A stretch of 64,000 nucleotides of DNA from an uncultured Gammaproteobacteria bacterium (lineage in GTDB: Bacteria > Patescibacteriota > Patescibacteriia > UBA11705 > DATKZF01). Below, piece after piece: positions 8,773-25,886 of this stretch. The position numbers and the translations under genes are program-made. Where the stretch lies: NCBI GenBank assembly GCA_964411255.1, contig CAYPKD010000001.1, forward strand, positions 7,331-71,330, given 5' to 3'. Each line of letters begins with the position of its first letter. The stretch's first letter is position 1. The notes below the pieces were generated by a model, which saw only the letters and a list, made by a program, of their open reading frames with translations, made no database searches and was not told the DNA's origin.

Positions 8773-8989
8773 TGCACCCCCCTTTGATTTTCACCTTGTT
8801 GCCCATATGACAACTTTGACAAAAATCAATCTTCTGCCTGCTCCCTGCAAGCATGCTCTTATATTATTCGTCAAAAGAAATAAAGTCAAATAGGAATAAA
8901 TCATCTTGTACTATCTTGTACAATTAATCTCGCCTGTCCTGAGCGAGCGAGTCTTTACCAAGCGAGTCGAAGGGTATATCTTGTAATAC

Positions 8990-9030
8990 TAAAAAAGGAC
9001 GAAAATCTGATTTCGTCCTCAAAGTTTATT
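8990..9030 (-). terminator. Rho-independent terminator downstream of the GC-rich cassette
   Basis: Minus-strand hairpin GGACGAAATCAGATTTCGTCC followed by U-run. Confidence 0.45.
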
Positions 9031-9038
9031 TGCTTATT

Positions 9039-10154
9039 TTAATCAACTCCCAACGGAACTCTGACACTACCCAGAAATCCTTCTCGATCTCCTTCAGTGT
9101 CGCGTTTTGGTCCGTTCAGAATCTCACGAGCAATACCTTCGCTTACAAAATGGCAGACAATGACCGCAGCAGGTTCTTCTTCCCACTCGTCAAGCGACCT
9201 TTTGTCAAGCTCAAGGTCTTGCCTTACCCGAGCGCCAGCAGCCACACCCACTTGATCCATGTGCGCAGCAGATCTGGTGCGCCGAGCTTGGGCAGTAACT
9301 GATTTGGATCGTTTTTTCCCCATTAAAGCATGGCGCCTAACACCGCCAGATGATCTCAGGCCTAACCTGCGAAGCGGTGGACCGCCAAGATATTGCTCCC
9401 CAAAATCACGACTGCCCTTATCTGAGTCACCAAATAGAGAACATTTATATGTTGAATCCACTGAACTGCGAAAACGCGGCATCTCTCGACGCGGTTTTGG
9501 CTCTTTTGATCTGAAAAAGGCAAAGCCGAACGAAGGAACTCTGTCCCCACCCAGCACTGCAATTCCCACATCTTTTTTCAGCATTTCAGCCGTAAAGTAG
9601 AACTGCCTTACCTGGTCACCAACGCGGAATCCATCCCACCAAAGAATGTTTGGATGAGAAACGTAATTCTGCGCAGGCCACTTGAAATTGCATTCAGGGC
9701 AAAAACGCTCGCCTTCAAATGGGACACTGTGAATCGGACACTTTTCCCGATAATGCTCCAGCCGAAGCTTGTCCACTTTTTGGCCAGTAATCGGATTCAT
9801 GCCAGTGGTTGAAGGCACAATGGCTGCGAAAAATCCGCCATCATTATGCCGCCAGTCATACCACATACCAGGACCCTGGCCTTCATCGCTCATTGGCACA
9901 GGAATGAAATAGGCATCGCCTTTTTTGCTCCATTCACTGGGACAACCAGCGTATTTGTGAACTGGGTAAGCAGGGGCTACTACTCCAGGAGGCAGACCAT
10001 GAACCTGGTCTTTTTCTCCTTTTGAAGCCAGCCGCGGGGCAAACATGATCTTTGCATGATAACCTTCAGTTACCAGCTTGCCCGTTGCCTCAGGAAATTC
10101 CTGGCTGAACTGCCTGACCCATTGGATACATTCGTCGTGTGTCTTAAAATCCAT
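9039..10154 (-). CDS. Hypothetical protein, GC-rich (likely horizontally acquired)
   Basis: 371-aa ORF with much higher GC than flanks; GGAGG RBS 6 nt before ATG; CxxC-like CPIHSVPFEGERFCPEC; many spurious overlapping ORFs typical of high-GC coding. Confidence 0.55.
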   Translation of the reverse strand: MDFKTHDECIQWVRQFSQEFPEATGKLVTEGYHAKIMFAPRLASKGEKDQVHGLPPGVVAPAYPVHKYAGCPSEWSKKGDAYFIPVPMSDEGQGPGMWYDWRHNDGGFFAAIVPSTTGMNPITGQKVDKLRLEHYREKCPIHSVPFEGERFCPECNFKWPAQNYVSHPNILWWDGFRVGDQVRQFYFTAEMLKKDVGIAVLGGDRVPSFGFAFFRSKEPKPRREMPRFRSSVDSTYKCSLFGDSDKGSRDFGEQYLGGPPLRRLGLRSSGGVRRHALMGKKRSKSVTAQARRTRSAAHMDQVGVAAGARVRQDLELDKRSLDEWEEEPAAVIVCHFVSEGIAREILNGPKRDTEGDREGFLGSVRVPLGVD

Positions 10155-10209
10155 TGATCCCTCCTTTGGGACTTGGGGCTCCTGACGGAGCCCCAGGCTC
10201 TAGTCTGAA

Positions 10210-11253
10210 CTAGTAACGCTGATGACCGGCTTGATCATCATCCCGATGGAAAGGATCAGCATTCCGGCTGGGAGAGCTTGTCCGGCTGCGCGTTCCGATT
10301 TCCACTCTGAGAGTGGGAAGCTCATCGCGCGCCCTCAGTTCGTCAAACCGAACCTTGCTGCGGCGATAACGCGCGGCCAGCGCATCAAAACCTTTGGAGG
10401 CGATATTGAACAGACGATGCTGCGCATCCACATGTCCAGCATTGGCTTCGCGAGTCATGTTGACCGCAATATACACCAGCTGGCGGGCGGAAAGTTCCAC
10501 CTCGCCCCACTTGATGCCCGTATCGCTGCAAACTCCTGAACGAAGCGGCTTTTCATTGATCGGGCACATATCCACTAGATGGGCAGGATAGTCTCCGATA
10601 GCGAAAAGCTTGTAGGTCACGTCCTGATGGGTATAAAGCCCTTCAGCAACGTCATCAAATCCTTCGTCCAGCTCTTTCATGTACTGGGCAGTTGCTTCCA
10701 CACTGCCATCGCCTGTGGCAGTATCAAAGCAGATCACCAATTTTGTGCCATACGCACCACGCAGCAGACCAACAGCCGGATGCCTGGGCTTGGAGTGCAC
10801 CACCTTGAAATAGGTGGGCAAAAAGATGACAGGATCGATCAGCGAAGTGAGCGTATCGCCCATTCCTCCACCCTGACCTCCCATCAGAGCCAGCAAAGCC
10901 AGCATGTTGTCACCGCCGCTAATGCCCAAAGAGCTAAGAAAGCCCTCAGGCGATTCAGGATCAGCAGGCTTTTCAGCCTTTGACTCCTTGGCAGCAGGTT
11001 TGCTGGTAGAGCCAGCTTCCTCTCGGAACATCTTGGCCATTCGCTGAGCATGCATGGGCTTGAACCCAGCATTCTCAATGGACTCGAAAGTAACGCCGGC
11101 CAGGACTTCGAGACTGTCGCCTCCAGCCTGATCCAGCTTCTTCCACACCTGCAAGGGCGTCATTTTGGCAATCTCTGCTGCCTTTTCGAGCGCCTCCCTG
11201 TAGGCTTTGTCCAATTTTGCAAATGCCTTCTTGGAATAACCGTTCTTAGCCAT
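10210..11253 (-). CDS. Hypothetical protein, GC-rich, co-operonic with 9039..10154
   Basis: 347-aa ORF; 55-bp spacer holds perfect hairpin GGGGCTCC-tgac-GGAGCCCC; no recognised domain. Confidence 0.55.
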   Translation of the reverse strand: MAKNGYSKKAFAKLDKAYREALEKAAEIAKMTPLQVWKKLDQAGGDSLEVLAGVTFESIENAGFKPMHAQRMAKMFREEAGSTSKPAAKESKAEKPADPESPEGFLSSLGISGGDNMLALLALMGGQGGGMGDTLTSLIDPVIFLPTYFKVVHSKPRHPAVGLLRGAYGTKLVICFDTATGDGSVEATAQYMKELDEGFDDVAEGLYTHQDVTYKLFAIGDYPAHLVDMCPINEKPLRSGVCSDTGIKWGEVELSARQLVYIAVNMTREANAGHVDAQHRLFNIASKGFDALAARYRRSKVRFDELRARDELPTLRVEIGTRSRTSSPSRNADPFHRDDDQAGHQRY

Positions 11254-11605: not shown

Positions 11606-11692
11606 GGGTCGGTACCAAAGCGGTCAACTGGGGCAGACTGTAAATCTGCTGGCCTTGTGCCTTCGGTGGTTCGAATCCGCCCCGGCCCACCA
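11606..11692 (+). tRNA. tRNA-Tyr(GTA), class II with long variable arm, CCA encoded
   Basis: Manual cloverleaf: acceptor GGGTCGG/CCGGCCC, anticodon loop CUGUAAA, T-loop GGTTCGAATCC. Confidence 0.85.
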
Positions 11693-13858: not shown

Positions 13859-14024
13859 AAAACAACCCAACTACAAAACAACATAATTCACCTAAAGTAA
13901 GAGTAAAACCTTAACAATCTTACTCTTACAGGTGATTGCTTGGATGACCTGTTTACTACGGCTCTTTGCTCAGTTAGTATTACAATACTGCAATACTTAA
14001 TTTTTATGTTTTAAGCATAACATA

Positions 14025-14969
14025 TCAAATTAAATTTTCAAAGGTCAGTTTATTTGCCTTTGCTTTCATTACGTGAGTAGGTCTACAGCGAAGGTATATT
14101 GATGTCATTTTAATCCCCTTATGCCCTAGTATTTGTTGCAACTCTGAAATATCATAACCTTGATTTATACAATTCATGGCGAACGTATGACGAAACATAT
14201 GGGCATGAAATTTAACACCAGATTCATCATTTAATCTCTTTATCATATGTTTCACTCCATCTTTTGTGAATCTTGAATTATGAGTAGAAGAGATGAAAAA
14301 ATATGGAGAAGTATTCTTAGTTTTTTTCCTCTCTTCTAAATAATCCTTTAATATCTGGAATAATTTAAGATTCATATTAACTATTCTATCATGACCTGTT
14401 TTTGAGGTTTCACCCCTGACAAACACCTCCATTCTATCAAAATCAATATCATCAAGACGTAAACTCACTAATTCATTAAGTCTTAAACCGCAAAAAAGAA
14501 AAGTAGCTACTATGGCATAATTACGTTTTCGCAATAAACTATTCTTCCAATCAATATTGATTAAAACTGCTGAAATAATTTTATCAATATCATCTTTCTT
14601 AATAAATTTTTTATCTAGATACTCAACCTTAGGTGCTTTTATGTACATAAAAGGATTATGGTCAATATATTTTCTTATCCTTAACCAATCAAAAAACCGA
14701 CTCAGTTTACTTCGATAAGTAGCAATCGTACTATTCTTTACTCCGACTTTAATTCCACCCTTTCCTACTAGTCTTTTACGTTTTTGTAAATGTTCAAAAA
14801 ATATATTCATAACCTCAGGTGTTATCTTATCTAAAGATAAATTCGGTATGAGTTCACTTAAAAGCTTAAAAGATGATTCATACCCTCTTATAGTAACTTC
14901 TGAAAGTCCCAAAGAATAACGCGATTCTCTGACAAACTCCTCAAAAAGCTCATTAAGATTCTTTTTCAT
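14025..14969 (-). CDS. Tyrosine recombinase / phage-type integrase
   Basis: C-terminal HxxR...Y motifs (FRHTFAMNCINQGYDISELQQILGHKGIKMTSIYL); next to right junction. Confidence 0.85.
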   Translation of the reverse strand: MKKNLNELFEEFVRESRYSLGLSEVTIRGYESSFKLLSELIPNLSLDKITPEVMNIFFEHLQKRKRLVGKGGIKVGVKNSTIATYRSKLSRFFDWLRIRKYIDHNPFMYIKAPKVEYLDKKFIKKDDIDKIISAVLINIDWKNSLLRKRNYAIVATFLFCGLRLNELVSLRLDDIDFDRMEVFVRGETSKTGHDRIVNMNLKLFQILKDYLEERKKTKNTSPYFFISSTHNSRFTKDGVKHMIKRLNDESGVKFHAHMFRHTFAMNCINQGYDISELQQILGHKGIKMTSIYLRCRPTHVMKAKANKLTFENLI

Positions 14970-15579
14970 TGCTCTCAGTTTCTTGATTTTCTTCTATTTT
15001 CTTTGTTTTAGCAATTATTTGGTCAATTACATCTGATATTTCACTCCTATCTTCTTCGCTCATTTCGTCCAATTGCTCGCTTGCTTTGTCCCACATTGAA
15101 TTTTCATTTCTACTTTTTAACCAATCAGTGATTAAAGTTATTTTGCTAAAATTGTGTTGTCCCATATCCCATCCATTAAAAGACGCATAGTCCTTAAGCA
15201 TCTTCATCAAAATCTTTAAGGCTTTCTCCTTCTCGCCTTTGACCCAAGATTTTGCAATATTTTTCTCACTAATTAAATCTGTCATCTGCTCAATCGTTGT
15301 TTCCATCTGCGCGCCCAGTATCCCGCGCAAGCTTAAGGTATCCTCTATATCCTTTAAGTTATTTGGCTGGTTCTCCTTGTAATAAGAAGAAATGTCCCGC
15401 TCAACTGTGCGAAGAGTTACCTCACCCCAGCCACGATGTTCAGCCATAGTATTTAATCTTTTTTTGACGGTTTCATTAGAAAAACCATTTAATTTAAGCA
15501 TTATCGTGGTATCACGACGTGCTCTTAGCAGAGATGCAGGAATTGATTTCCTGCCTGTTGTCTTTTTGACTTCTGTCAT
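14953..15579 (-). CDS. Hypothetical island protein (208 aa), overlaps integrase start
   Basis: ORF only; acidic C-terminus. Confidence 0.45.
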   Translation of the reverse strand: MTEVKKTTGRKSIPASLLRARRDTTIMLKLNGFSNETVKKRLNTMAEHRGWGEVTLRTVERDISSYYKENQPNNLKDIEDTLSLRGILGAQMETTIEQMTDLISEKNIAKSWVKGEKEKALKILMKMLKDYASFNGWDMGQHNFSKITLITDWLKSRNENSMWDKASEQLDEMSEEDRSEISDVIDQIIAKTKKIEENQETESNEKES

Positions 15580-15851
15580 ACTTTTTTAAGTTAATTTTTA
15601 AATACCGGCGTTTACGACATTCTCTAAATACAAAAAAACACAGAACGGCGATTACAACCGGGCAAAATACAAAAAATTGTATTTTTAGTTTGCCCTAGAT
15701 GGTTATAGTCAAAATTCTGTGCTTTTAAATTAAGCTGTTGGGACTATGTATGTTCTAGTACTTAGATTGTTAATGTATATTTAAATGGTAATATCAATTC
15801 TTAATCATGTCAATACCCCATGTTGATAAGAGTTAACAAAGTTGAAAAAGT

Positions 15852-16610
15852 TTATTTTTCTGTCTTTGTATTTCTAGAATCTACATAACTACAATAATCA
15901 CATTCTGAACCGGCTTTTGGAATTTTCTTACTTCTCAAAGTTTTATGTATATCTTTAATAGTCTGCTCAAGCCATTTATCGCTACCCTTATACGGAATCA
16001 ATACTATTTCAAATTCTAATTTTGCATCAAACGCTTCTCTATCTTTACGGCCATTGCAATAAACAAAATAACCCATATTTGATACTTTCAAGCCATTCAT
16101 CCTTAATAACCACTGATAAATCTCCATTTGCCTTTTATAGCCATCCATCCAAGGCTTATCAAGTTTAGTAACTGGTTCTTGCTTACTGGTGGCCTTATAG
16201 TCAACGACTATGTACTTACCTTTTGAATCCTGCCATAAATCATCAATTGCTCCTGTAATAATAAAATTAGTTGGTTCATGTAAATACTGAACACCCTTAA
16301 AATTTTCTCGCCAAACATCAAGATTATCATGAGCCACTGGTTTTGCATCAACCTTATACTTCTTTAATAATGGATGTTGTTTATTTTTACTTCTATGTTC
16401 ATCGAATTCTTTCTTTAGTAATTCATCAACTGTAGAATTCAATGCAAATGGAAATCCCGGTGGTCTGCCAACTCCCAATTTTCTATCAAGATAAAAACAT
16501 CTTGGACAATCCAAAAACAAATCTATCTTTGAACGAGATATCTTAAACGGCTTTTTTGACTTTGGGTCGTAAAGATTTTTTGTTCGTTGTGAATTGTAAT
16601 ATTGGGACAT
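15852..16610 (-). CDS. PD-(D/E)XK nuclease, Cas4/RecB-like, with Cys clusters
   Basis: GAIDDL ... VVDYK ... QMEIYQW (D-EXK-QxxxY) plus N-terminal DCPRC and C-terminal ECDYC cysteines. Confidence 0.55.
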   Translation of the reverse strand: MSQYYNSQRTKNLYDPKSKKPFKISRSKIDLFLDCPRCFYLDRKLGVGRPPGFPFALNSTVDELLKKEFDEHRSKNKQHPLLKKYKVDAKPVAHDNLDVWRENFKGVQYLHEPTNFIITGAIDDLWQDSKGKYIVVDYKATSKQEPVTKLDKPWMDGYKRQMEIYQWLLRMNGLKVSNMGYFVYCNGRKDREAFDAKLEFEIVLIPYKGSDKWLEQTIKDIHKTLRSKKIPKAGSECDYCSYVDSRNTKTEK

Positions 16611-16614
16611 ATTA

Positions 16615-17463
16615 TTATTGTCTTTCGTTTTTATCTAATGTATTACCCTCTTCATCTTTCCATTCTTTCCACCCATTAGCACGACGTGCAAGAATAACAG
16701 CGGCAGCAGCACTAGGACTATTAAAAATATAGTTCTTTACAAATTTGTAAGAATCCTCGCCTTCTTTTTCTATTACTCCATCCGCTAATAATCTCTCCAC
16801 CATTCCCTCAACCCAAGTACCAGCAGTTTTTGTTAGCTTTCTTCTTGTTATGGAGTCACTATACACAACTAATCCCTCATCTGAATATTTCCCTTTAGCT
16901 TTTGCTGATGGGCCTTTGCAGTAATAAATCTTTTCAGATTCATCAATAATATTAATATCATCAAAAATCGGATATCCTAAAGTAGCTACCAAAAGCTCAA
17001 TACTTCCAAAAAAATCCATAACATCAGCCACATCAGTTTCTGGTAGTTGTGTTTTTGCCGGAATAGTACCATTTACAACATTACATCGATTTAATTTCTG
17101 AGCAATATCATAACAATACCCTTCTAAATATTTCACGTGGGCTTTATTAATTGAGTTATTTGTACTAACAAAACACAATGCAATATTCCAAAAATCTTTA
17201 CCTTCATCTTTGTTATGCTGTAATAATCTTTTATACACCTGTTCTGCCTCTCCAATGTATACATCGGGAATATTTGAATCAATTTCTTTTCCTATCAGAA
17301 AATAAAGCCCAACAGTTTTTAATTCATCGCGACTTGCCGCTTCCTTAATTTTATTTCTTGGCACCAAAATTGCTTTAGCAACACGACCACCAATCTCTGC
17401 AATTTTAACACCAGAGGGGGTGCCGTCAGCTAATAAAATTTTAATTGTTTTAGGATTTTTCAT
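16615..17463 (-). CDS. GIY-YIG nuclease-like N-domain with DUF4357-like C-domain (hsd-associated)
   Basis: GLYFLIGKE...VYIGEAEQVYKRLLQH resembles GIY-YIG; abuts DUF45 gene and Cas4-like gene. Confidence 0.55.
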   Translation of the reverse strand: MKNPKTIKILLADGTPSGVKIAEIGGRVAKAILVPRNKIKEAASRDELKTVGLYFLIGKEIDSNIPDVYIGEAEQVYKRLLQHNKDEGKDFWNIALCFVSTNNSINKAHVKYLEGYCYDIAQKLNRCNVVNGTIPAKTQLPETDVADVMDFFGSIELLVATLGYPIFDDINIIDESEKIYYCKGPSAKAKGKYSDEGLVVYSDSITRRKLTKTAGTWVEGMVERLLADGVIEKEGEDSYKFVKNYIFNSPSAAAAVILARRANGWKEWKDEEGNTLDKNERQ

Positions 17464-17464
17464 A

Positions 17465-17785
17465 TTAATTTATACAATATTTATTTAATCTCAATTCTAA
17501 CTTTTCATATTCACCTAAATACGACGACATTCTGCTTTTCCATAATTTACTATGATTCGGGGTATGAAAATGAAGTAATTCATGAACGATCACATACTCT
17601 CCCAAATCTCGCTCAATTTCTAGGAGCTCAACGTTAAAATTCAGATTTCCATTAGTTGAGCAAGAAGCCCATTTATTTTTCATTGGACGCAAATACAAGC
17701 ACCTTATTTTAATGCCAATCTTATCAGCAAAAAAATAGACACGCTCTTTGAATTCAGCTTTATTTGTCCAACAATTAGATATCAT
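17465..17785 (-). CDS. DUF45/M48-like metal-dependent hydrolase, short (106 aa; YgjP-like, possibly truncated)
   Basis: HELLHFH (HExxH); overlaps hsdR stop, a common hsdR-adjacent partner. Confidence 0.5.
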   Translation of the reverse strand: MISNCWTNKAEFKERVYFFADKIGIKIRCLYLRPMKNKWASCSTNGNLNFNVELLEIERDLGEYVIVHELLHFHTPNHSKLWKSRMSSYLGEYEKLELRLNKYCIN

Positions 17786-20699
17786 AAGCTTTTGAAATTA
17801 GTCTAAATAATTCTTCAGCCACTTTTGTTGCCTTTTCTATATCGTCTTCTTCTGCCAGTATCGCATAATAAATCTCTGCACGAAGTTTTCTCAAAGCTTC
17901 AGTACTTTGTTTCCAAGTTTGATGCTCTACAAATGCCTCCTTAATCTTATCAGTAACAATATCTGGCTGAGGAATCTTATGTTGTTCGATTAATTGATTT
18001 ACAAAATAAGTTAAACTATCAAACCCTTTTTCTGCCTGTTTCTTTCGACGTTCAATATCTTCTTCGTATAACTTTCGAAGTTCTTCCAAGGTTTTCTTTG
18101 TTGTTAATTGCCGAGACTCATATCTTTCCTTAATTTCTTCAGCTCTTTCCAACAATGAAATCAAGAAAAGGTCATCGCTTTGTTCTTCTGCTATTTTCTC
18201 GATGGATTTTATTAAATTGATAATTCTAACATTATCATCTTCATGCTTAGCTTTAATTTTCTCGATTGATTTCTTATTAATTTCGTAAAATTCAGACTGA
18301 GTTTCCAATTTTTCCAAGCCTACATGCTTTTGAACCAGTTGATTTGTTTTTCTCTGAAATTCTCTATCAATGTAAACTTTTTTTGCATAGGCATTTCGAA
18401 CAATTCCATAGATTGCTGATAACGTGCCATAATCATCAATGTATGGTCTCAAAAAAGCATCTGGGGAGATAATCTCATAAAGCATTTCAATCTCTTTATA
18501 GAGTTTGAAAAACTTTTTACGTTTTTCTGCATCACGGAAATGCTCTATTAACTTATCTGTATCCTTATCATCAAACTTTTTAGAAACCAACTTCAAATAT
18601 GAAGCAGCCTCTTTCTTCATCTTTTTTTCAAATTGTTTTTTCAATAATCCTAAGTCTTTAACTACTGCATCTATCTCATCACTATCAAAAGCTAATGCTT
18701 TTTCAACTTTATCGAAAATTCCGATAAAATCTAATACAAAACCATGCGGTTTAAGCATATTATGTTCTTCATTCTCATAAGGCCGATTTACACGCGCAAT
18801 AGCTTGTAAAAGCGTATGATCACGCATTGGTTTATCAAGATACATTGCATACAGAATTGGTGCATCATATCCTGTTAAAAGCTTTTCTGTGACAATAAGA
18901 ATTTTGGGCTGTTCTCCATATTTAGTAAATTTCTTTCTAATCTCTCTTTCCCTTTGTTCATCATGATGAAATTCTTTTAATAATTTAGAATCATTGTTAT
19001 TACCAGTATAAACAACTTCTGAATATTCCTTTGGTAAATATTTATCTAGAGCTTTCTTGTAATATGCACAAGCTTCTCGGTCTACTGCAACAAAAAATGC
19101 TTTATAGCCTAAAGGCTCCACATTTTCTTTGAAATGTTCAGCTGCATATTTTGCCACTGCATCAATTCTTTTTTCTCCTTTTAGAAAATTTTTAATATTA
19201 ACTGCTCTTTCAAGGACTTTATTCAATTCTTCAATCTCTGTTATTCCATGAGCATCTGCAAGTTGCAAAAATTCTTCTTCCAATGTTTCTTTTGGCACTA
19301 AAAGTTTATTTGGAGCAATACTATAAAATAAGGGCAACGTAGTACCGTCTTCGATACTATCAGCAATAGAATACTTATGAAGATAACCCTTTTTATCTTC
19401 AAGACCAAATGTCTTAAATGTTCCTTTTCCATATACAGTCTTATCAATAGGTGTCCCAGTGAATCCTATAAAAGATGAGTTCGGTAATCCTGCCATTAAG
19501 AAATTCCCTAAATCACCTTGAGTAGTCCTATGCGCTTCATCAATAAGCACAAAAATATTTTCTCGAGTATTGATATCTGCAGGCATTTTCTGAAATTTGT
19601 GAATTGTCGTTACAATAATTCCTCGATAATCATCTTTAAGTAATTTATTAAGCTTTCGAATAGAAGTTGCATGTTCAACATTATTCAATCCAACCGAGCT
19701 TAAATTTGTTATCATTTGCTGCTCTAGTTCATTACGATCAATCATAAGCAAAATAGTAGGTTTATCTGATTCTGGAGCTTTGAATAATAATTCGGCGACT
19801 TTAATCATTGTATAAGTTTTTCCTGAACCTTGAGTATGCCAAACCAAACCACGTCTTTTGGTTTTATTATGAGCGCGTTTAATAACTTCTTCAACTGCCT
19901 CTTGTTGGTGTTGCCTAAGTATGTATTTATTCAACTCTTCATCTTTCTCTGCAAACATTATGTATTTACCCAACACATCCAATATCTGACGTTTATCGCA
20001 AAATGTTTTAATTTTAGATTCTAACTTACCGATTTCTTTTTCTTTCCAATTAAAAATATTCCTTCTAATTAAATTCCATGTTACCCCATAGCTAAAACCA
20101 ATACTTTCCGTTGCTGTAAATATTTGCTCTGGTACAAATAACTCAGGTGTTTCATTATGATATCGACGTAATTGGTCGATTCCAATTGCAACCGCCTCGT
20201 CCTTGGTTGCGTTTTTACATTCAATAACAAGAACTGGAATACCATTAATTAAAAAAACAACATCCTCTCTGTTAGCATACTTGCCATTAAAATAATAAAA
20301 TTCCTCAGTCACTTCAAACACATTATTACTGAACTTATCGTAATCAATCAGATTAAGATTTAATTCTCTATTCTCACCTTCGTGAAAAAATGTTTTGTCT
20401 CCTCTTAAATATTGTACAAATTCACGATTACCATAGATATCTGGAGTTAATGCTGAAAAACGACGAATAAGGTCATCAATATTATTATGAAAATGAGGAT
20501 TAAATTTATTAACTTTTTCATGAAGGATACCCTGAAAATAAAGAGAAGCAGTTTCAGCTCTGTCGCGAGGTGAAACTCCTTGGGGGTCAAAACCACGGCG
20601 TTCTTCAGCCTCTTTTTGGCCAACATACTTCCATCCAATTTCTTGGGCGTATTTAAGTATCCTAGCTTGTACTGATTTTTGCTCTGTTGGTTTAGACAT
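17775..20699 (-). CDS. hsdR: Type I restriction enzyme R subunit
   Basis: 974 aa; SF2 helicase motifs TQGSGKT, DEAH (VLIDEAHRTTQG). Confidence 0.9.
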   Translation of the reverse strand: MSKPTEQKSVQARILKYAQEIGWKYVGQKEAEERRGFDPQGVSPRDRAETASLYFQGILHEKVNKFNPHFHNNIDDLIRRFSALTPDIYGNREFVQYLRGDKTFFHEGENRELNLNLIDYDKFSNNVFEVTEEFYYFNGKYANREDVVFLINGIPVLVIECKNATKDEAVAIGIDQLRRYHNETPELFVPEQIFTATESIGFSYGVTWNLIRRNIFNWKEKEIGKLESKIKTFCDKRQILDVLGKYIMFAEKDEELNKYILRQHQQEAVEEVIKRAHNKTKRRGLVWHTQGSGKTYTMIKVAELLFKAPESDKPTILLMIDRNELEQQMITNLSSVGLNNVEHATSIRKLNKLLKDDYRGIIVTTIHKFQKMPADINTRENIFVLIDEAHRTTQGDLGNFLMAGLPNSSFIGFTGTPIDKTVYGKGTFKTFGLEDKKGYLHKYSIADSIEDGTTLPLFYSIAPNKLLVPKETLEEEFLQLADAHGITEIEELNKVLERAVNIKNFLKGEKRIDAVAKYAAEHFKENVEPLGYKAFFVAVDREACAYYKKALDKYLPKEYSEVVYTGNNNDSKLLKEFHHDEQREREIRKKFTKYGEQPKILIVTEKLLTGYDAPILYAMYLDKPMRDHTLLQAIARVNRPYENEEHNMLKPHGFVLDFIGIFDKVEKALAFDSDEIDAVVKDLGLLKKQFEKKMKKEAASYLKLVSKKFDDKDTDKLIEHFRDAEKRKKFFKLYKEIEMLYEIISPDAFLRPYIDDYGTLSAIYGIVRNAYAKKVYIDREFQRKTNQLVQKHVGLEKLETQSEFYEINKKSIEKIKAKHEDDNVRIINLIKSIEKIAEEQSDDLFLISLLERAEEIKERYESRQLTTKKTLEELRKLYEEDIERRKKQAEKGFDSLTYFVNQLIEQHKIPQPDIVTDKIKEAFVEHQTWKQSTEALRKLRAEIYYAILAEEDDIEKATKVAEELFRLISKAYDI

Positions 20700-21942
20700 A
20701 ATTATTAATATTTTGGAAATTAATCATATTAACTCTAATCTGATTACTCATAAGTTTATCTAATATAGAATCAAATAGATTCATATAGCAATTTTTCTTC
20801 GATCTTAATAAAATAAGTTTTTTATCAATTGCGCTTAAAGATTGTGAGATACTGGACTGTTCGGATTTATTTGGAAGAGGCACCTTTTGATTTTTCACAT
20901 CATTATCCCTTACAGCTGGATAACTTGCTCCTCTTTGCAAACTCCCTATGGATTTAATAAAATTTTCAGTTAACAAATATTGAAATAAAAAATTATGTTC
21001 AATTTTTTCAGGATTCACTCTGAGGACACAATAGCCAGTACTACAAACCTCATTATCTAATTCAGAAGGAATCACAGCTATTCTCTTCAGGGTGGGTCTT
21101 ACTGTAGCAAAAATTATGTCATTTTCTTGCACTTGTTTTTTTGCTCGACTTGGAGCATCTTTACCAAGAATATTGCTAGTATCTTCTATTTGAAATGATT
21201 CATTAGACACACTTGAAACATCTATGTATTTGAAAAATTCGTTGGGTTTCTTTTTGGGCTCCACATTTGATGTTTTTAATAATAAAGATTTTATTGTTAC
21301 CAAATCCCAACTCTCTGGAATGAAACCAATTTCAGTTTCTTTTTGTCTCTCTCCTTTTGTCCCTTCAGTAAATAGTTTTTGCATTAATACATTCTTAAGT
21401 TCAGTCGTTTGCGCAATAAGTTCATTCTGCATTTCAATTGATTTTTGTATTACTGACAAAATATATGCAATGTTTTTTTGTATACTACCTTCCCACAAAG
21501 GAATTTGAATATTCTTAAAATCTGATTTCTTAAAAAAACCACGAGTTGTTTCTGAATTTCTCTCGATAAATTCTTGAATTGAAGACAAGAGGTAGAAGTA
21601 TAAAAATTTAGGGTTCAACTCTTTATTCCCAGGTGTTACTTTCCACATATTTTGGTTTAATAATGCTGGTAGGATATCTCTCGGTATCATTGTCATTTTA
21701 CCTCTTGTTGCACCCACCATAACAATTAAAATATCTCCTTTATTCAATAAATACTTTGCATATTTTTTTGAAAAATCTTGAGGTAAATATTCAACATCTC
21801 CCAAATTAATTTGTCCCCCCTCCAAAATATTCACAACTCTAAAATTAAGAATACCGCTATCTACGTAGTCCTTGCTCTTGAATGCAAAACCATTTGTAAC
21901 ATCACATTCTTTTCCGATTGTACTATATTTAGTATTACTCAT
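20692..21942 (-). CDS. hsdS: Type I R-M specificity subunit
   Basis: 416 aa, two target-recognition-domain halves separated by conserved spacers; overlaps hsdM and hsdR. Confidence 0.8.
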   Translation of the reverse strand: MSNTKYSTIGKECDVTNGFAFKSKDYVDSGILNFRVVNILEGGQINLGDVEYLPQDFSKKYAKYLLNKGDILIVMVGATRGKMTMIPRDILPALLNQNMWKVTPGNKELNPKFLYFYLLSSIQEFIERNSETTRGFFKKSDFKNIQIPLWEGSIQKNIAYILSVIQKSIEMQNELIAQTTELKNVLMQKLFTEGTKGERQKETEIGFIPESWDLVTIKSLLLKTSNVEPKKKPNEFFKYIDVSSVSNESFQIEDTSNILGKDAPSRAKKQVQENDIIFATVRPTLKRIAVIPSELDNEVCSTGYCVLRVNPEKIEHNFLFQYLLTENFIKSIGSLQRGASYPAVRDNDVKNQKVPLPNKSEQSSISQSLSAIDKKLILLRSKKNCYMNLFDSILDKLMSNQIRVNMINFQNINNYV

Positions 21943-23488
21943 ATCCTAATTTAGAAAGAATCTCCGACATTTCTTTATCGATGTTTTTTGATTCTTTTTC
22001 AATTTCTTTTAATTCCAATACAATTTCTTTGATTGGTTTATGCTCAGCATCATCTGAAATATGTATGTATCGGCTTGGAGAAATATTGTAATCATTTTTA
22101 ATAATTACATCTTTATCAATAAATTCTGAAAATTTCTCGATTTCTTCAAATTTATTAAAAGTATTAGCAATTTTTTCTATTCCTTCATCAGTAATGTAAT
22201 TCTTTGGGTCACCTTTTTTGAATTCTTTAGAAGCATTTACTAAAAAAACTTTGTCTTTATGCTTTTTATTTTTATTCAAAAATAGAATAATACCTGGAGC
22301 AGTAGTATTGTAGAAAAGATTCTCTGGCAAATACAAAACACCTTCCAGTAAATCATTATCTACAAAGTAAGCTCGAGCTTCTTTTTCTTTATTTGTATTT
22401 GCATTTCCTGAACCTCGTGATGCTGCGCCTGTATCAAGTACAATTGCGGCTTTACCAGAATTATTCAAACTAGCCCAAATGTGCTGAACCCAAGCCCAAT
22501 CAGCATTACCACCTGGATTCTTTTTGAAGCGCTCAAAATGGTCATCATTGTAAAAATTATCACCCAAATACGGTAACGAATCCTTTCCTTGATTCCACAT
22601 AGGATTGGCTACCACTCTATTAAATTTCTTTAATTTCCCTTTATCGAGAAATTTAGGGCTTTTCATCGTGTCTCCTATCTCAATATCACCCTCCATGTCA
22701 TGCACAATCATATTCATTTTTGCCATTGCCCAAGTATCTCCTACAAACTCTTGTCCATACAATTTCAATGGTGCAACCTTCTTTTTTCCATTATGCTTTT
22801 GTTGCATTACAATTTGATTTTTAATAAGTAGGCCGCCGCTTCCGCAGGTTGGGTCATAAATATCCATTCCCGGCTCTGGTTCCATTATTTTTGCCATAAT
22901 CAACCCAACTTCAGTAGGGGTATAGAACTCTCCAGCACTTTGGCCGCTATTTTCTGCAAATTTTCTAATAAGATACTCATAACTTCGACCAATGATATCT
23001 GGTTCGACATCTTCCAGACCTAAACGCTTCTGGCTAATCCTTTCAATTAGATTAGACAATCTATCATCTGGAATATCTCGTTGACCATGTGTAGTTGCAT
23101 TAAAATCGACCCGGTCAATAATCCCAGATAAAGAAGGATTTTCTTTAGCAATACCTCGAAGCAAATTTGTTAACTGCTCTCCAACATTACTAGATATTTT
23201 TCGTATTGCTGACCAAACCTCATCTGTGTCTGGATTCAGTGGAATTAAAGGTAGATAATATCGAACTAATTTCCTATCTTTTTCAATTAGTGCAAAAGCC
23301 TTTCTTCTGCCTCCTACTTTCATTGCAATGCGATTTACTTCATCATCGAATACGTCACAAAGCCTTTTAACAAAAATTAGAGGCAAAATATAGTCTTTAT
23401 ACTTTGCGGCATCCTTTGCTCCACGAATAGAGCAGGCTGCATCCCATATCCATGATTCTAATGATTTTCCATTGTTATTTTTTGTCAT
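21935..23488 (-). CDS. hsdM: Type I R-M DNA methyltransferase subunit (N6-adenine)
   Basis: HsdM N-domain; motif I DPTCGSGGLL; motif IV reads NPMW rather than canonical NPPF. Confidence 0.9.
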   Translation of the reverse strand: MTKNNNGKSLESWIWDAACSIRGAKDAAKYKDYILPLIFVKRLCDVFDDEVNRIAMKVGGRRKAFALIEKDRKLVRYYLPLIPLNPDTDEVWSAIRKISSNVGEQLTNLLRGIAKENPSLSGIIDRVDFNATTHGQRDIPDDRLSNLIERISQKRLGLEDVEPDIIGRSYEYLIRKFAENSGQSAGEFYTPTEVGLIMAKIMEPEPGMDIYDPTCGSGGLLIKNQIVMQQKHNGKKKVAPLKLYGQEFVGDTWAMAKMNMIVHDMEGDIEIGDTMKSPKFLDKGKLKKFNRVVANPMWNQGKDSLPYLGDNFYNDDHFERFKKNPGGNADWAWVQHIWASLNNSGKAAIVLDTGAASRGSGNANTNKEKEARAYFVDNDLLEGVLYLPENLFYNTTAPGIILFLNKNKKHKDKVFLVNASKEFKKGDPKNYITDEGIEKIANTFNKFEEIEKFSEFIDKDVIIKNDYNISPSRYIHISDDAEHKPIKEIVLELKEIEKESKNIDKEMSEILSKLGYE

Positions 23489-23499
23489 AAAATTAAAAA

Positions 23500-23676
23500 T
23501 TAATTCTGACTCTCCTGAATAAACTTCTGGAGGTCTTTTTCACTAATTCGCCATTGACCAATCTTAGATGCCTTTAAGCGTCCTGATTCAATATACCGTG
23601 TTACAGACCTTTCGCTTACTCTAAGAATCTCTGCCACTTCTTTTAATGTTAGTAATTTTTCTTTAGTCATAAGCAT
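23500..23676 (-). CDS. Excisionase/AlpA-like helix-turn-helix DNA-binding protein (58 aa)
   Basis: Manual translation MLMTKEKLLTLKEVAEILRVSERSVTRYIESGRLKASKIGQWRISEKDLQKFIQESQN; below ORF-track size cutoff. Confidence 0.55.
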   Translation of the reverse strand: MLMTKEKLLTLKEVAEILRVSERSVTRYIESGRLKASKIGQWRISEKDLQKFIQESQN

Positions 23677-23767
23677 TTGTTATTACTAATATTGTAACTA
23701 ATTAAAAGCGATGTGTCAAAATTTGTCATGTTTTGACATATAGGTTTAATTTGAGTAAAGTAATGGT

Positions 23768-24748
23768 ATGAGCAAACAAACTACAACAAAAAGAAGTCAT
23801 TATCTTCCCAAAACTTACCTAAAGCATTTTCTTTTGGATGATGCTTTGTTTATGTATATGAAAGGGAAAAAATTTTTTGATGAAGAAAAAACACCCGCGG
23901 AAAGAATATTAAAGGTTGGGGGTGAAGATGGGCTAACAAATATTGGGTTGAAAAATAATTTGTATAATCCCGAAATTGATGGTATTTCCAGTGATGATAT
24001 GGAGGAGATATTCAGAGGATATGGGGAGGACTACTACAATGAATTGATATATGATATTAGCAAGTTAGATGACCAAGCTTTAATACCAGAAATAATAAAA
24101 TCAAAATTAGCTTATTTTCTAGCTTCAATGCGTGTACGAACACCTCAATTCAAATCAGAAACTGAAGAAATGGACACCGCATTTAGAAAGCATTTCTCTA
24201 AAAGACATTTTGAACTAATTAACCCTGAGGAAATAGTTGAAGTAAGTAAAAAAGAATTTTCTAATGAAATAAGCCTGGAAGAAGCTAATAAGATAAAGGA
24301 CTGTATTGTTAAACAAGAATATGATCTTAAATATCCCAATGGCTTTTTTATTCAAATGGCCCTTATGATGATAAATCACTATGCTGACATTTTCCATCAA
24401 ATGACTGTAAGCATAGTAAAGTCTGATGGGCGATATTTTGTAACTTCTGATAATCCAGTAGTATATTTCGTTCCTCCTGAGAAAGTAAATTTCTATCATC
24501 CCCCTAAAGCACTTGTAAGTCCATTTACAGAATTATTTTTTCCACTGACAAAAGACTTAGCGGTAACTTTAAATTGGAGAAAGAATGAAGAGCGAATAAC
24601 CAAAACATCAAGGGCAATAGTTGAGATATTTAATAATAACATTACTCACCATTCTTTCGACTTTATTTTTTCACCAATTCAAATGAAAGCACTAAACAAG
24701 TTTACAAAAGAACACATACCTTATCCATTCAAAATTAGGGTTAGCTAA
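23768..24748 (+). CDS. DUF4238-like protein
   Basis: N-terminal HYLPKTYLKHF matches the DUF4238 signature start; only plus-strand gene in island. Confidence 0.5.
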   Translation: MSKQTTTKRSHYLPKTYLKHFLLDDALFMYMKGKKFFDEEKTPAERILKVGGEDGLTNIGLKNNLYNPEIDGISSDDMEEIFRGYGEDYYNELIYDISKLDDQALIPEIIKSKLAYFLASMRVRTPQFKSETEEMDTAFRKHFSKRHFELINPEEIVEVSKKEFSNEISLEEANKIKDCIVKQEYDLKYPNGFFIQMALMMINHYADIFHQMTVSIVKSDGRYFVTSDNPVVYFVPPEKVNFYHPPKALVSPFTELFFPLTKDLAVTLNWRKNEERITKTSRAIVEIFNNNITHHSFDFIFSPIQMKALNKFTKEHIPYPFKIRVS

Positions 24749-25656
24749 TAATCATCAAGTGGATGTTTTCTAATCTGGGACCGTAAATGCTCTGCTGAAG
24801 CAGCCAGATAAATCGTCGTTGTCTTGATGTCCGCATGCCCCATCATTCTAGATAAAGAATAAATATCACATCCTCCCTCCAACATCAACGTCGCAAATGT
24901 GTGGCGTAGTTTGTGAATCGTAAACGGAATCTCTGACGAATCACGAATTTTTTCAACTAGTCTTTTAATACCTGAGTCAGCAAATCCGCAATTTCTGTTT
25001 AATGAAGCAAAAAATTCTGGGCAAGTCTTTTTCAGACGTTTGCGTTCTATTAAATATTTTTCTAAACTTTCAGCCAATTTTGAACCTATTGGTATAATTC
25101 TGTCTTTACTTCCCTTTCCCTGATAAACAAATATAGACATATTTTCTAAATCAACGTCAGATAACTTTAATTTTATCAATTCTCTTTTTCTGAGCCCAGC
25201 AAATAGAAATACTGAAAATATTGCATGATTTCTGTATCTGAGATATCGATACTTATACGGGTAGTTATAGACCACTTCCAGTAATCTATTAGCTTCTTGC
25301 CTTGATAACTTGGGAGGTAGTTTCTTTTCAAGCTTTGGGACTTCAATATCCTCTGCAAAATTTTGTTCAAGATGACCTTCTTGAACACACCACCTGAAAA
25401 ATACCAAGAGACTCTTATGATAAGTTATGAACGTGTTTGTGCTCCAATCTCTTTGAGTTCTCCCATCATAAAAAAACTTTCTGACATTGGTTTCATTTAC
25501 TTCTGATATTTTTTTTATTTCTGAAAGACTGCAATACAAATTGATACATACTCTGTATCTTTTAATTGTGTCGCCTGAATACCCCCTGATATAGCTTGAG
25601 TATTCACAAAACTGTTTGCCTAAATTTTTTATCAACATAAAAATACTGCCTTTCAA
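24745..25656 (-). CDS. Tyrosine recombinase / integrase (second)
   Basis: HKLRHTFATLMLEGGCDIYSLSRMMGHADIKTTTIYL; adjacent to island tRNA-Thr and left junction. Confidence 0.85.
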   Translation of the reverse strand: MKGSIFMLIKNLGKQFCEYSSYIRGYSGDTIKRYRVCINLYCSLSEIKKISEVNETNVRKFFYDGRTQRDWSTNTFITYHKSLLVFFRWCVQEGHLEQNFAEDIEVPKLEKKLPPKLSRQEANRLLEVVYNYPYKYRYLRYRNHAIFSVFLFAGLRKRELIKLKLSDVDLENMSIFVYQGKGSKDRIIPIGSKLAESLEKYLIERKRLKKTCPEFFASLNRNCGFADSGIKRLVEKIRDSSEIPFTIHKLRHTFATLMLEGGCDIYSLSRMMGHADIKTTTIYLAASAEHLRSQIRKHPLDDY

Positions 25657-25672
25657 TTGCAGTATTTCTAAA

Positions 25673-25748
25673 TGGAGCCGTCTTCGGGACTTGAACCCGA
25701 GACCCCCACCTTACCATGGTGGTGCTCTACCAGCTGAGCTAAGACGGC
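25673..25748 (-). tRNA. tRNA-Thr(GGT), intact, island-borne
   Basis: Reverse strand GCCGTCTTAGCTCAGCTGGTAGAGCACCACCATGGTAAGGTGGGGGTCTCGGGTTCAAGTCCCGAAGACGGCTCCA folds to canonical cloverleaf. Confidence 0.85.
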
Positions 25749-25886
25749 AAATTTGGTTTGCTGGTCAGACCTATAAAGCTTTATAAGTCGGTTAGCCGAC
25801 GACCTGTTTAGTAATAGAGATGGGGTCTATTATTAACAATTTAGCTAGTATTAGCGTAAAGAGTTAAAATTCATATGACCTGTTTA

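What the first reader, a model, noticed from the sequence alone, without database searches (positions are those of the whole stretch)
15852..23488. Six-gene translationally coupled operon hsdM-hsdS-hsdR-DUF45-GIY-YIG/DUF4357-Cas4-like nuclease
All six genes are on one strand with overlapping or abutting stops and starts (23488 to 15852). Behind a standard type I R-M module sit a short HExxH (DUF45/M48-like) protein, a GIY-YIG-like nuclease fused to a DUF4357-like domain, and a PD-(D/E)XK Cas4/RecB-like nuclease with N- and C-terminal Cys pairs. The last two have no obvious role in canonical type I restriction. They are candidates for a type I R-M-linked accessory defense module or a novel restriction-coupled effector.
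Basis: partly seen in the sequence, partly recalled or inferred. Interest (0 to 1): 0.7.

Follow-up and report, generated by a model that had tools for sequence, protein, structure and literature searches.

The report
Restriction operon with two extra nucleases
A 12-kb mobile island in a small-genome (CPR/Patescibacteria) bacterium carries an ordinary type I restriction-modification system followed by three add-on genes; two are nucleases from families that are already catalogued as likely anti-virus genes but have never been tested.

Summary
The six co-directional, overlapping or abutting genes are real. The operon has a seventh gene, a 56-aa HTH at its head behind the best promoter match. 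HsdM/S/R are canonical. The HExxH protein is only the C-terminal half of a YgjP/DUF45 domain. The 282-aa protein is a GIY-YIG nuclease fused to a RAMA-like DUF4357 domain. It matches PADLOC candidate PDC-S14 nearly full length (E 4e-98). Its family spans Bacteria and Archaea, and 25 of 78 sampled loci have type I components within six genes. The order hsdM-hsdS-hsdR-DUF45-GIY recurs in a Bacteroidota MAG, and the same gene set in a different order on a Salinibacter plasmid. The 252-aa protein has a Cas4/Dna2-type PD-(D/E)XK fold with four invariant Cys. It belongs to a very large, ~70%-identical CPR-wide "solo-Cas4" group that often ends R-M operons of several types (10 of 40 informative loci) but also sits among housekeeping genes. 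The operon is cargo of a 12,028-bp two-integrase element that splits tRNA-Thr(GGT) and carries a replacement tRNA. The exact six-gene set was seen only in this organism. Verdict: a defence island of known kind; the accessory genes are more likely autonomous add-ons than a new HsdR-coupled effector.

The parts
23691..23719 (-). Best sigma-70-like promoter match (TTGACA-17-TACAAT, 11 of 12), likely operon promoter
   Evidence: This is a consensus match only. The total number of matches in the region is not above the shuffled expectation.
23500..23670 (-). 56-aa excisionase-family HTH (HTH_17), 11 nt upstream of hsdM. Candidate operon regulator or excisionase.
   Evidence: TIGR01764 39.1 bits against a cutoff of 28.8; PHROG excisionase/regulator families; JGI calls PF12728. 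A homolog (E 1e-20) heads a type III R-M operon in L139.
21935..23488 (-). hsdM, type I N6-adenine DNA methyltransferase (517 aa)
   Evidence: PF02384 8e-91, PF12161 1e-20; PADLOC MTase_I 6.5e-164
20692..21942 (-). hsdS, specificity subunit with two target-recognition domains (416 aa); 8-nt overlap with hsdM
   Evidence: PF01420, two stretches, 1.3e-31; PADLOC Specificity_I 8e-52; junction
17775..20699 (-). hsdR, restriction/translocase subunit (974 aa); 8-nt overlap with hsdS
   Evidence: TIGR00348 487 bits (cutoff 285); HSDR_N, SWI2_SNF2, ResIII, T1R_D3-like
17465..17785 (-). Short YgjP/DUF45-type HExxH protein (106 aa); C-terminal half of the domain only; 11-nt overlap with hsdR
   Evidence: PF01863 6e-26, profile positions 113-206 of 207; aligns to residues 123-231 of the 233-aa L044 homolog; the upstream frame is closed by stops
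16615..17463 (-). GIY-YIG nuclease fused to a RAMA-like DUF4357 domain (282 aa); PADLOC PDC-S14 family
15852..16610 (-). Solo-Cas4-like PD-(D/E)XK exonuclease with CxxC...CxxC (252 aa)
23768..24748 (+). Divergent DUF4238 gene (326 aa), a second defence-type cargo gene
   Evidence: PF14022 2e-24; PADLOC DUF4238-Pers 3e-9. A DUF4238 protein protects E. coli against T7 (Rousset preprint).
13859..25886 (-). 12,028-bp integrative element carrying the operon, bounded by a 7-bp direct repeat ATGGTAA in the anticodon loop of a split tRNA-Thr(GGT)
   Evidence: 5' half at 25924-25887 and 3' half at 13858-13814. The joined halves are called tRNA-Thr(ggt) by ARAGORN.
25673..25748 (-). Element-borne complete tRNA-Thr(GGT), the replacement copy
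   Evidence: Its sequence differs from that of the split tRNA.
24745..25656 (-). Tyrosine integrase 1, next to the element tRNA
   Evidence: PF00589 4e-30; more than 2000 CPR relatives; 65% identical to the L006 integrase
14025..15579 (-). 208-aa unknown protein (15579-14953), overlapping by 17 nt with tyrosine integrase 2 (14969-14025), at the other end of the element
   Evidence: PF00589 1e-37 for int2; no family hit for the 208-aa protein. A second integrase at the far end also occurs in L181 and L183.

Best explanation
This is a mobile defence island, not a new kind of restriction machine. A 12-kb two-integrase element inserted in the anticodon loop of tRNA-Thr(GGT) of a CPR/Patescibacteria genome carries one operon: HTH regulator, HsdM, HsdS, HsdR, short DUF45 protein, GIY-YIG/DUF4357 nuclease, Cas4-like nuclease.

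Shown: HsdMSR is a complete canonical type I system (m6A methylation of self DNA; ATP-driven translocation and cleavage of unmethylated DNA).

Inferred:
(a) The GIY-YIG/DUF4357 (PDC-S14) protein is a self-contained second nuclease. Its RAMA-like C-terminal domain binds DNA, probably reading a modification state, and directs the GIY-YIG domain. The most likely role is type IV-like restriction of phages whose modified DNA escapes type I restriction.
(b) The Cas4-like protein is a metal-cluster 5'-3' end-processing exonuclease. In CPR bacteria it is appended to R-M operons of any type. The most likely role is degrading the ends produced by restriction, as RecBCD or AddAB do elsewhere.
(c) The half-length DUF45 HExxH protein is the usual hsdR-adjacent metalloprotease-like partner, possibly removing stalled HsdR.

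The modules are co-transcribed and translationally coupled, but each can work without the others.
For: Anatomy and domains.

Within the int1 element family the Cas4-like gene is variable cargo. It is present in three R-M-bearing elements, absent from a fourth R-M-bearing element (L182), from an element carrying only a C5 methylase (L183) and from an element without R-M (L181). Solo-Cas4 abundance in CPR and its R-M adjacency in DPANN are already noted in PMC5704561.
Against: No activity has been measured for any PDC-S14 member, and only in-silico mentions were found. A preference of RAMA for 6mA could not be confirmed for MPND, and RAMA contacts DNA without sequence specificity (PMC9963953). 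The family's frequent adjacency to adenine methylases (hsdM in about 20 loci, D12 class in 5) fits equally well with a nuclease that uses methylation as a self mark. The Cas4-like family is about 70% identical across many CPR lineages and often sits among housekeeping genes. That suits a core repair or salvage enzyme. The claim that CPR lack RecBCD/AddAB rests on general knowledge and was not tested on this genome. The DUF45 protein may be a decaying remnant.
Confidence: 0.6

Rival explanations
1. Integrated restriction-coupled effector. The DUF45, GIY-YIG/DUF4357 and Cas4-like proteins act with HsdMSR as one machine. For example, the RAMA-like domain reads the HsdM methylation state and the GIY-YIG domain supplies extra cleavage at sites where HsdR stalls, with Cas4 resecting the ends.
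For: Tight translational coupling of all genes. The order hsdR-DUF45-GIY recurs in three phyla. The RAMA family is defined by its association with adenine methylases and restriction enzymes (PF18755 hit; PMC9963953). The GIY and Cas4-like genes stay together at 75% and 70% identity while the R-M module differs in L006.
Against: 53 of 78 GIY loci have no type I gene within six ORFs. The GIY gene takes many positions relative to the hsd genes: before, between and after. The Cas4-like gene follows four different R-M types and also non-R-M genes. GIY and Cas4-like genes co-occur in only 1 of 86 and 0 of 78 sampled loci. PADLOC models PDC-S14 as a single-gene candidate.
Confidence: 0.15
2. The Cas4-like gene is a housekeeping CPR nuclease (repair, recombination or salvage of imported DNA) that was simply captured by, or lies beside, variable islands. 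It has no defence role.
For: At least 8000 clusters were found. The best 120 are 68-88% identical across Parcubacteria, Paceibacterota, Buchananbacteria, Niyogibacteria and others. Housekeeping neighbourhoods occur in L091-L093 (dcw genes, ribosomal proteins) and beside gyrB in L162. Solo-cas4 genes evolve mostly vertically under ordinary purifying selection (PMC5704561).
Against: In the window the gene lies inside a mobile element with sharply defined ends. In L006, L139 and L179 it lies between the R-M genes and the element integrase. A 25% rate of R-M genes immediately upstream, usually with gaps of 10 nt or less, is far above what a random gene would show (the baseline is my estimate, not computed). 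Phage relatives exist: phrog_31195 and phrog_1706.
Confidence: 0.25
3. The two nucleases serve the mobile element itself (recombination or replication functions, or an addiction module) rather than the host's defence.
For: GIY, Cas4-like and integrase are all conserved (75%, 70%, 65%) between the window element and the L006 element, while the R-M module was exchanged. Both nucleases have phage-encoded relatives. Cas4-family genes are often recruited by mobile elements (PMC5704561).
Against: Other elements of the same integrase family lack one or both genes: L179 has no GIY, and L181, L182 and L183 have neither. The GIY family is mostly chromosomal and spread across all phyla next to R-M genes.
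Confidence: 0.08

Closest known systems
PADLOC phage-defence candidate PDC-S14 (GIY-YIG nuclease family protein with DUF4357)
   Same: Near full-length HMM match (E 3.8e-98, residues 1-280). Same length of about 280 aa and same three-part architecture as hundreds of relatives.
   Different: Nothing distinguishes it structurally. It is a CPR member, 45-55% identical to named Bacillota and Bacteroidota members. The family itself has no experimental validation that I could find.
GIY-YIG-RAMA fusions proposed as 6mA-dependent type IV restriction enzymes (Helbrecht et al. 2024, PMC11037411)
   Same: Same two-domain logic: a GIY-YIG catalytic domain plus a RAMA-fold DNA reader.
   Different: The proposal is untested. 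The reader domain here is the DUF4357 branch (the RAMA Pfam hit is below cutoff, 22 against 35 bits). The gene sits behind an m6A methylase, which complicates a simple 6mA-dependent model.
Solo-Cas4 of small-genome prokaryotes (Hudaiberdiev et al. 2017, PMC5704561)
   Same: Cas4/RecB-type fold. No CRISPR-cas nearby. CPR host. Adjacent to R-M genes, as described there for DPANN archaea.
   Different: It belongs to Pfam PDDEXK_1 rather than core Cas4 (TIGR00372 below cutoff). The Cys pattern is CxxC...CxxC. Here it is documented behind types I, II, III and PLD-helicase/MmeI-like R-M systems in CPR, and inside a defined mobile element.
E. coli immigration control region and hsd-embedded effectors such as PrrC/RloC (own knowledge, not tested here)
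   Same: A type I R-M locus acting as a scaffold for additional, independently acting nucleases that cover escape routes.
   Different: Different effector families. Here they are appended in one translationally coupled operon on a tRNA-integrating element.
Salinibacter ruber plasmid pSR56 locus (NC_014028.1) and MAG locus L044
   Same: hsdR, then a SprT/DUF45 metalloprotease, then (hsdM and) the GIY-YIG/DUF4357 protein.
   Different: Their DUF45 proteins are full length (233-239 aa), and no Cas4-like gene follows.
PD-T4-3, a GIY-YIG 5hmC-specific restriction endonuclease (PDB 9u75)
   Different: Not the same family: there is no PADLOC PD-T4-3 hit, and the reader domain differs.

Membership tests
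Type I restriction-modification system | HsdM: N6-adenine methyltransferase with an HsdM_N domain | tested here: met
   PF02384 8e-91, PF12161 1e-20
Type I restriction-modification system | HsdS with two target-recognition domains | tested here: met
   PF01420, two stretches; PADLOC Specificity_I
Type I restriction-modification system | HsdR: N-terminal nuclease domain plus SF2 translocase, scoring above the curated family cutoff | tested here: met
   TIGR00348 487 bits against 285; HSDR_N, SWI2_SNF2, ResIII
Type I restriction-modification system | ATP-dependent cleavage of unmethylated DNA and sequence-specific m6A methylation | not testable with these tools
   Needs biochemistry or a methylome.
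PADLOC PDC-S14 / GIY-YIG-DUF4357 family | Full-length match to the family HMM | tested here: met
   PDLC04925 3.8e-98, residues 1-280 on profile positions 13-295 of 301
PADLOC PDC-S14 / GIY-YIG-DUF4357 family | GIY-YIG catalytic core (Tyr, Tyr, Arg, Glu, Asn) and fold | tested here: met
PADLOC PDC-S14 / GIY-YIG-DUF4357 family | C-terminal DUF4357 domain above the Pfam gathering score | tested here: met
   77.7 bits against 38.4
PADLOC PDC-S14 / GIY-YIG-DUF4357 family | Anti-phage activity | not testable with these tools
   No experimental report was found in the searchable library.
RAMA domain (PF18755) | Pfam score above the gathering cutoff | tested here: not met
   22 bits against 35.2. Many relatives carry a precomputed PF18755 hit. 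The fold matches MPND and CcrM RAMA domains. The domain is RAMA-like, not a proven member.
Type IV (modification-dependent) restriction enzyme | Cleavage requires modified DNA; no cognate methylase is needed | not testable with these tools
   Inferred only from domain fusions and from frequent stand-alone occurrence.
CRISPR-associated Cas4 | Score above the curated equivalog cutoff | tested here: not met
   TIGR00372 41.3 bits against 65
CRISPR-associated Cas4 | Adjacency to cas1/cas2 or a CRISPR array | tested here: not met
   All ORFs of the element are annotated otherwise. No CRISPR-like repeat array in the 64-kb window. No CRISPR family in Rfam.
CRISPR-associated Cas4 | RecB-type PD-(D/E)XK fold with a Cys cluster | tested here: met
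YgjP-like / DUF45 metallopeptidase (PF01863) | Match above cutoff and an HExxH motif | tested here: met
   92 bits against 26; HELLH is present
YgjP-like / DUF45 metallopeptidase (PF01863) | Complete domain (about 207 profile positions) | tested here: not met
   Only positions 113-206 are matched. The protein aligns to the C-terminal half of a 233-aa homolog. The N-terminal half is not found in HsdR or in the upstream frame.

The most novel reading that the evidence does not exclude
In CPR bacteria, which mostly lack CRISPR and have pared-down repair systems, the CPR-wide Cas4-like nuclease could be a dedicated post-restriction end-processing enzyme. R-M systems of every type would recruit it to their 3' ends as a RecBCD/AddAB substitute. 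In this element it would work in series with a methylation-state-reading GIY-YIG/RAMA nuclease, forming a three-nuclease cascade: HsdR cuts, GIY-YIG covers modified escapers, Cas4 destroys the ends.
Probability: 0.15. Interest if true: 0.6.

Novelty: new member of a known kind. Interest (0 to 1): 0.3.

Why it matters
CPR/Patescibacteria are thought to rely mainly on restriction-modification for defence. It therefore matters for understanding immunity in this large uncultured radiation which accessory genes travel with their R-M systems. The survey gives concrete, testable leads. PDC-S14 (GIY-YIG/DUF4357) is type I-linked across phyla. A single, highly conserved Cas4-like nuclease is appended to R-M operons of four architectures in CPR. 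Neither lead is a new class of system, and both were already flagged bioinformatically.

Tried and rejected
- Sequence search of PDB with family profiles for both nucleases found nothing meaningful. Fold comparison was needed instead.
- I looked for an island-free "empty site" through the flanking 188-aa protein. All contigs with that exact protein carry the island, so recent insertion is inferred only from the perfect split tRNA.
- Rfam scan of the interrupted tRNA region in L006 gave no intron family match. ARAGORN with introns allowed does call a tRNA-Thr with a 221-nt intron.
- Literature searches for DUF45 or COG1451 with type I restriction gave nothing usable. The hsdR-DUF45 link rests on L044, L078 and pSR56 and on my own recollection.
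- Homing-endonuclease reading of the GIY-YIG gene: rejected. It is not inside an intron or intein, and its family sits stably next to R-M genes across phyla.
- Bona fide CRISPR Cas4: rejected (below cutoff, no cas genes, no array).
- DUF45 N-terminal half fused to HsdR or hidden by a frameshift: rejected.
- Nucleases as element backbone genes: weakened by elements of the same integrase family that lack them.
- First attempt at joining the tRNA halves used coordinates that were off by two. This was corrected.

Full report
**Observation.** The ORF table shows six co-directional minus-strand genes at exactly the reported coordinates:
- hsdM, 23488-21935
- hsdS, 21942-20692
- hsdR, 20699-17775
- a 106-aa protein, 17785-17465
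- a 282-aa protein, 17463-16615
- a 252-aa protein, 16610-15852

The junctions are 8-, 8- and 11-nt overlaps, then 1- and 4-nt gaps. Profile searches confirm every domain call. HsdM has N6_Mtase (8e-91) and HsdM_N. HsdS has two Methylase_S stretches. HsdR scores 487 bits on TIGR00348 (cutoff 285). The short protein matches YgjP-like/DUF45 (6e-26). The 282-aa protein matches DUF4357 (77.7 bits, cutoff 38.4). The last protein matches PDDEXK_1 (4e-16) and Cas4 models (PADLOC 1.7e-12).

Three refinements apply.
- A 56-aa excisionase-family HTH ORF (23670-23500) lies 11 nt upstream of hsdM. It sits behind the best promoter-like site of the 12.3-kb region scanned (23719-23691). The unit is probably seven genes.
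- The DUF45 protein covers only profile positions 113-206 of 207. It aligns to the C-terminal half of a 233-aa homolog, and no missing half is found in HsdR or in the upstream frame.
- GIY-YIG is not detected by Pfam in this sequence and had to be established by other means.

**The GIY-YIG/DUF4357 protein.** It matches PADLOC candidate PDC-S14 almost end to end (E 3.8e-98). Relatives of about 280 aa are numerous; NCBI names them "GIY-YIG nuclease family protein", and some hit PF01541. An alignment of 24 members shows invariant Y54, Y69, R79, E114 and N131, the GIY-YIG catalytic set.

**Is it linked to type I systems?** A scan of one genome per species found at least 565 loci in Bacteria and Archaea, and 80 were fetched with 10-kb flanks. 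I called ORFs in these loci, clustered them by BLAST and annotated cluster representatives with Pfam. The most frequent neighbour families were:

| Neighbour family | Loci |
|---|---|
| HsdR | 22 |
| N6_Mtase/HsdM | 19 |
| HsdS | 13 |
| RadC | 7 |
| D12 methylase | 5 |
| AlwI endonuclease | 4 |

. With iterated profiles, 25 of 78 loci have at least one type I component within six ORFs, and 10 have all three. Most are on the same strand, but the position varies: before, between or after the hsd genes.
- L044 (Crocinitomicaceae) has exactly hsdM-hsdS-hsdR-DUF45-GIY.
- RefSeq annotation of Salinibacter plasmid pSR56 shows hsdS-ATPase-hsdR-SprT metalloprotease-hsdM-GIY.
- Plasmid pPAES01 shows hsdR-hsdS-AAA-...-GIY.

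The family is therefore strongly R-M-associated, but two thirds of its members have no type I neighbour. This argues for an autonomous enzyme.

The top 120 are 68-88% identical and come from many Patescibacteria lineages. Contexts are mixed:
- behind a C5 methylase plus an NgoFVII-type endonuclease in L089;
- among dcw or ribosomal genes in L091-L093.

In 80 metagenomic loci, the upstream same-strand neighbours include ResIII (6), N6_Mtase (5), Eco57I (5), RhuM (5), Fic (4), reverse transcriptase (3), GmrSD (2), N6_N4_Mtase (2) and NgoFVII (2). They also include dehydrogenases, cyclophilin and gyrase B. Targeted annotation shows type III Mod-Res operons (L139, L166) and a type I operon (L108) ending in this gene. 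Ten of 40 loci with at least 2.5 kb of upstream sequence have R-M genes among the four upstream genes. In 30 of 57 loci the gap to the upstream gene is 15 nt or less. This extends to CPR an observation made for DPANN archaea by Hudaiberdiev et al. 2017, who also noted solo-Cas4 abundance in CPR.

**Do the two nucleases form a pair?** Mostly not. No Cas4-like homolog was found in the 78 GIY loci, and only one GIY homolog was found in the 86 Cas4-like loci. The exception is informative. L006 is a 372-kb CPR scaffold. It has a GIY protein 75% identical and a Cas4-like protein 70% identical to the window's, separated by one unknown gene. They lie behind a PLD-SNF2 helicase plus an MmeI/Eco57I-type methylase instead of hsdMSR, next to an integrase 65% identical to the window's int1. 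A second close GIY relative (77% identical) lies in hsdM-hsdS-TPR-hsdR-Cas4/DUF2779-GmrSD-GIY.

**Genomic context.** The operon is cargo of an integrative element.
- A tRNA-Thr(GGT) is split in its anticodon loop: the 5' half is at 25924-25887 and the 3' half at 13858-13814.
- A 7-bp direct repeat ATGGTAA marks both junctions. The joined halves are called tRNA-Thr by ARAGORN.
- The 12,028 bp between the halves carry a different, complete tRNA-Thr(GGT) (25748-25673), integrase 1, a divergent DUF4238 gene, the operon, a 208-aa unknown protein and integrase 2.
- The DUF4238 family has one member shown to protect against T7.

L006 has the same junction: a 5' tRNA half, the TAAACAGGTC motif twice, then an element tRNA-Thr that carries a 221-nt intron, then the integrase.

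The integrase family has more than 2000 CPR relatives. Five further elements show variable cargo:

| Element | Cargo |
|---|---|
| L179 | PLD-helicase + MTase + Cas4-like |
| L182 | PLD-helicase + MTase, no Cas4-like |
| L183 | C5 methylase, no Cas4-like |
| L181 | neither R-M nor nucleases |
| L180 | truncated |

A second integrase lies at the far end of the element in L181 and L183. The nucleases are therefore cargo, not backbone. All contigs carrying the exact flanking protein contain the island, so no empty site was seen.

**Mechanism.**
- Shown: a complete type I system and two nucleases with intact active-site residues.
- Inferred, GIY-YIG/DUF4357: it acts as a stand-alone, modification-state-guided (type IV-like) endonuclease that complements type I restriction.
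- Inferred, Cas4-like: it resects or destroys DNA ends produced by restriction.
- Inferred, DUF45: the half-length protein is the common hsdR-adjacent metalloprotease-like partner, and its role (perhaps clearing stalled HsdR) is speculative.

Against a single integrated machine stand the variable gene order, the many type I-free occurrences and the promiscuity of the Cas4-like gene. In its favour stand the tight coupling and the historical association of RAMA with adenine methylases. The housekeeping reading of the Cas4-like gene remains a serious rival.

**Verdict.** The locus is a new member of a known kind: a mobile defence island with a type I R-M system, PDC-S14 and a solo-Cas4. Interest is modest.

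Noticed in passing
window 25924-25887, 13858-13814 and 25748-25673: A tRNA-Thr(GGT) is split in its anticodon loop by a 12,028-bp element with a 7-bp direct repeat ATGGTAA. The tRNA is not restored. Instead the element carries a different, complete tRNA-Thr(GGT). The inner junction sequence GTTTT-ATGGTAA-TAAAC mimics the anticodon stem-loop.
   Followed up: partly
L006 12890-12370 (minus strand): A related CPR element has the same junction architecture. Its replacement tRNA-Thr(GGT) carries a 221-nt intron in the anticodon loop (ARAGORN with introns allowed). No Rfam family matches it.
   Followed up: partly
window 25889-25874, 25813-25798, 13958-13943; L006 about 12830 and 12740: The motif TAAACAGGTC occurs twice near the integrase-1 end and once near the integrase-2 end, and twice at the equivalent end of the L006 element. 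These are candidate integrase arm-type binding sites.
   Followed up: no
window 14025-15579; L181 17298-18113; L183 16848-17789: Elements of this family carry a second tyrosine recombinase at the end opposite to integrase 1. In the window it overlaps by 17 nt a 208-aa protein with no detectable family.
   Followed up: partly
window 23768-24748 (+): A DUF4238 gene is divergently transcribed from the R-M operon. A DUF4238 protein from a P2 hotspot protects E. coli against T7, so the island carries at least one more defence-type gene.
   Followed up: partly
L139 8-196 and window 23500-23670: A close homolog (E 1e-20) of the 56-aa HTH heads a type III Mod-Res operon that also ends in the Cas4-like gene and an integrase. 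This suggests an R-M controller role rather than, or as well as, an excisionase role.
   Followed up: no
L006 140-7139; L125; L164; L179 3157-9512; L182 11278-17696: A two-gene module recurs on CPR mobile elements: a PLD-nuclease/SNF2-helicase fusion of about 1100 aa plus an MmeI/Eco57I-type methylase of about 1050-1160 aa with a TaqI_C domain. It is often followed by the Cas4-like gene.
   Followed up: no
L092 7734-7994; L093 9249-9509; L097; L089 16219-16470: Small stand-alone GIY-YIG proteins (83-87 aa) lie next to or near the CPR Cas4-like gene in 7 loci. The significance is unclear because such genes are common in CPR.
   Followed up: no
window 7777-11253: The stretch 9000-11000 has GC 0.49-0.54 in a genome of about 0.34 GC. 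It holds two of three consecutive ORFs in 7777-11253 (331, 371 and 347 aa) for which the precomputed Pfam records list no hit. It looks foreign. tRNA-Tyr lies next to it at 11606-11692.
   Followed up: no
window 58578-58757: Three tandem 60-nt repeats (78-100% identity) lie inside the 1135-aa ORF 58000-61407. This is a coding repeat, not a CRISPR array.
   Followed up: no
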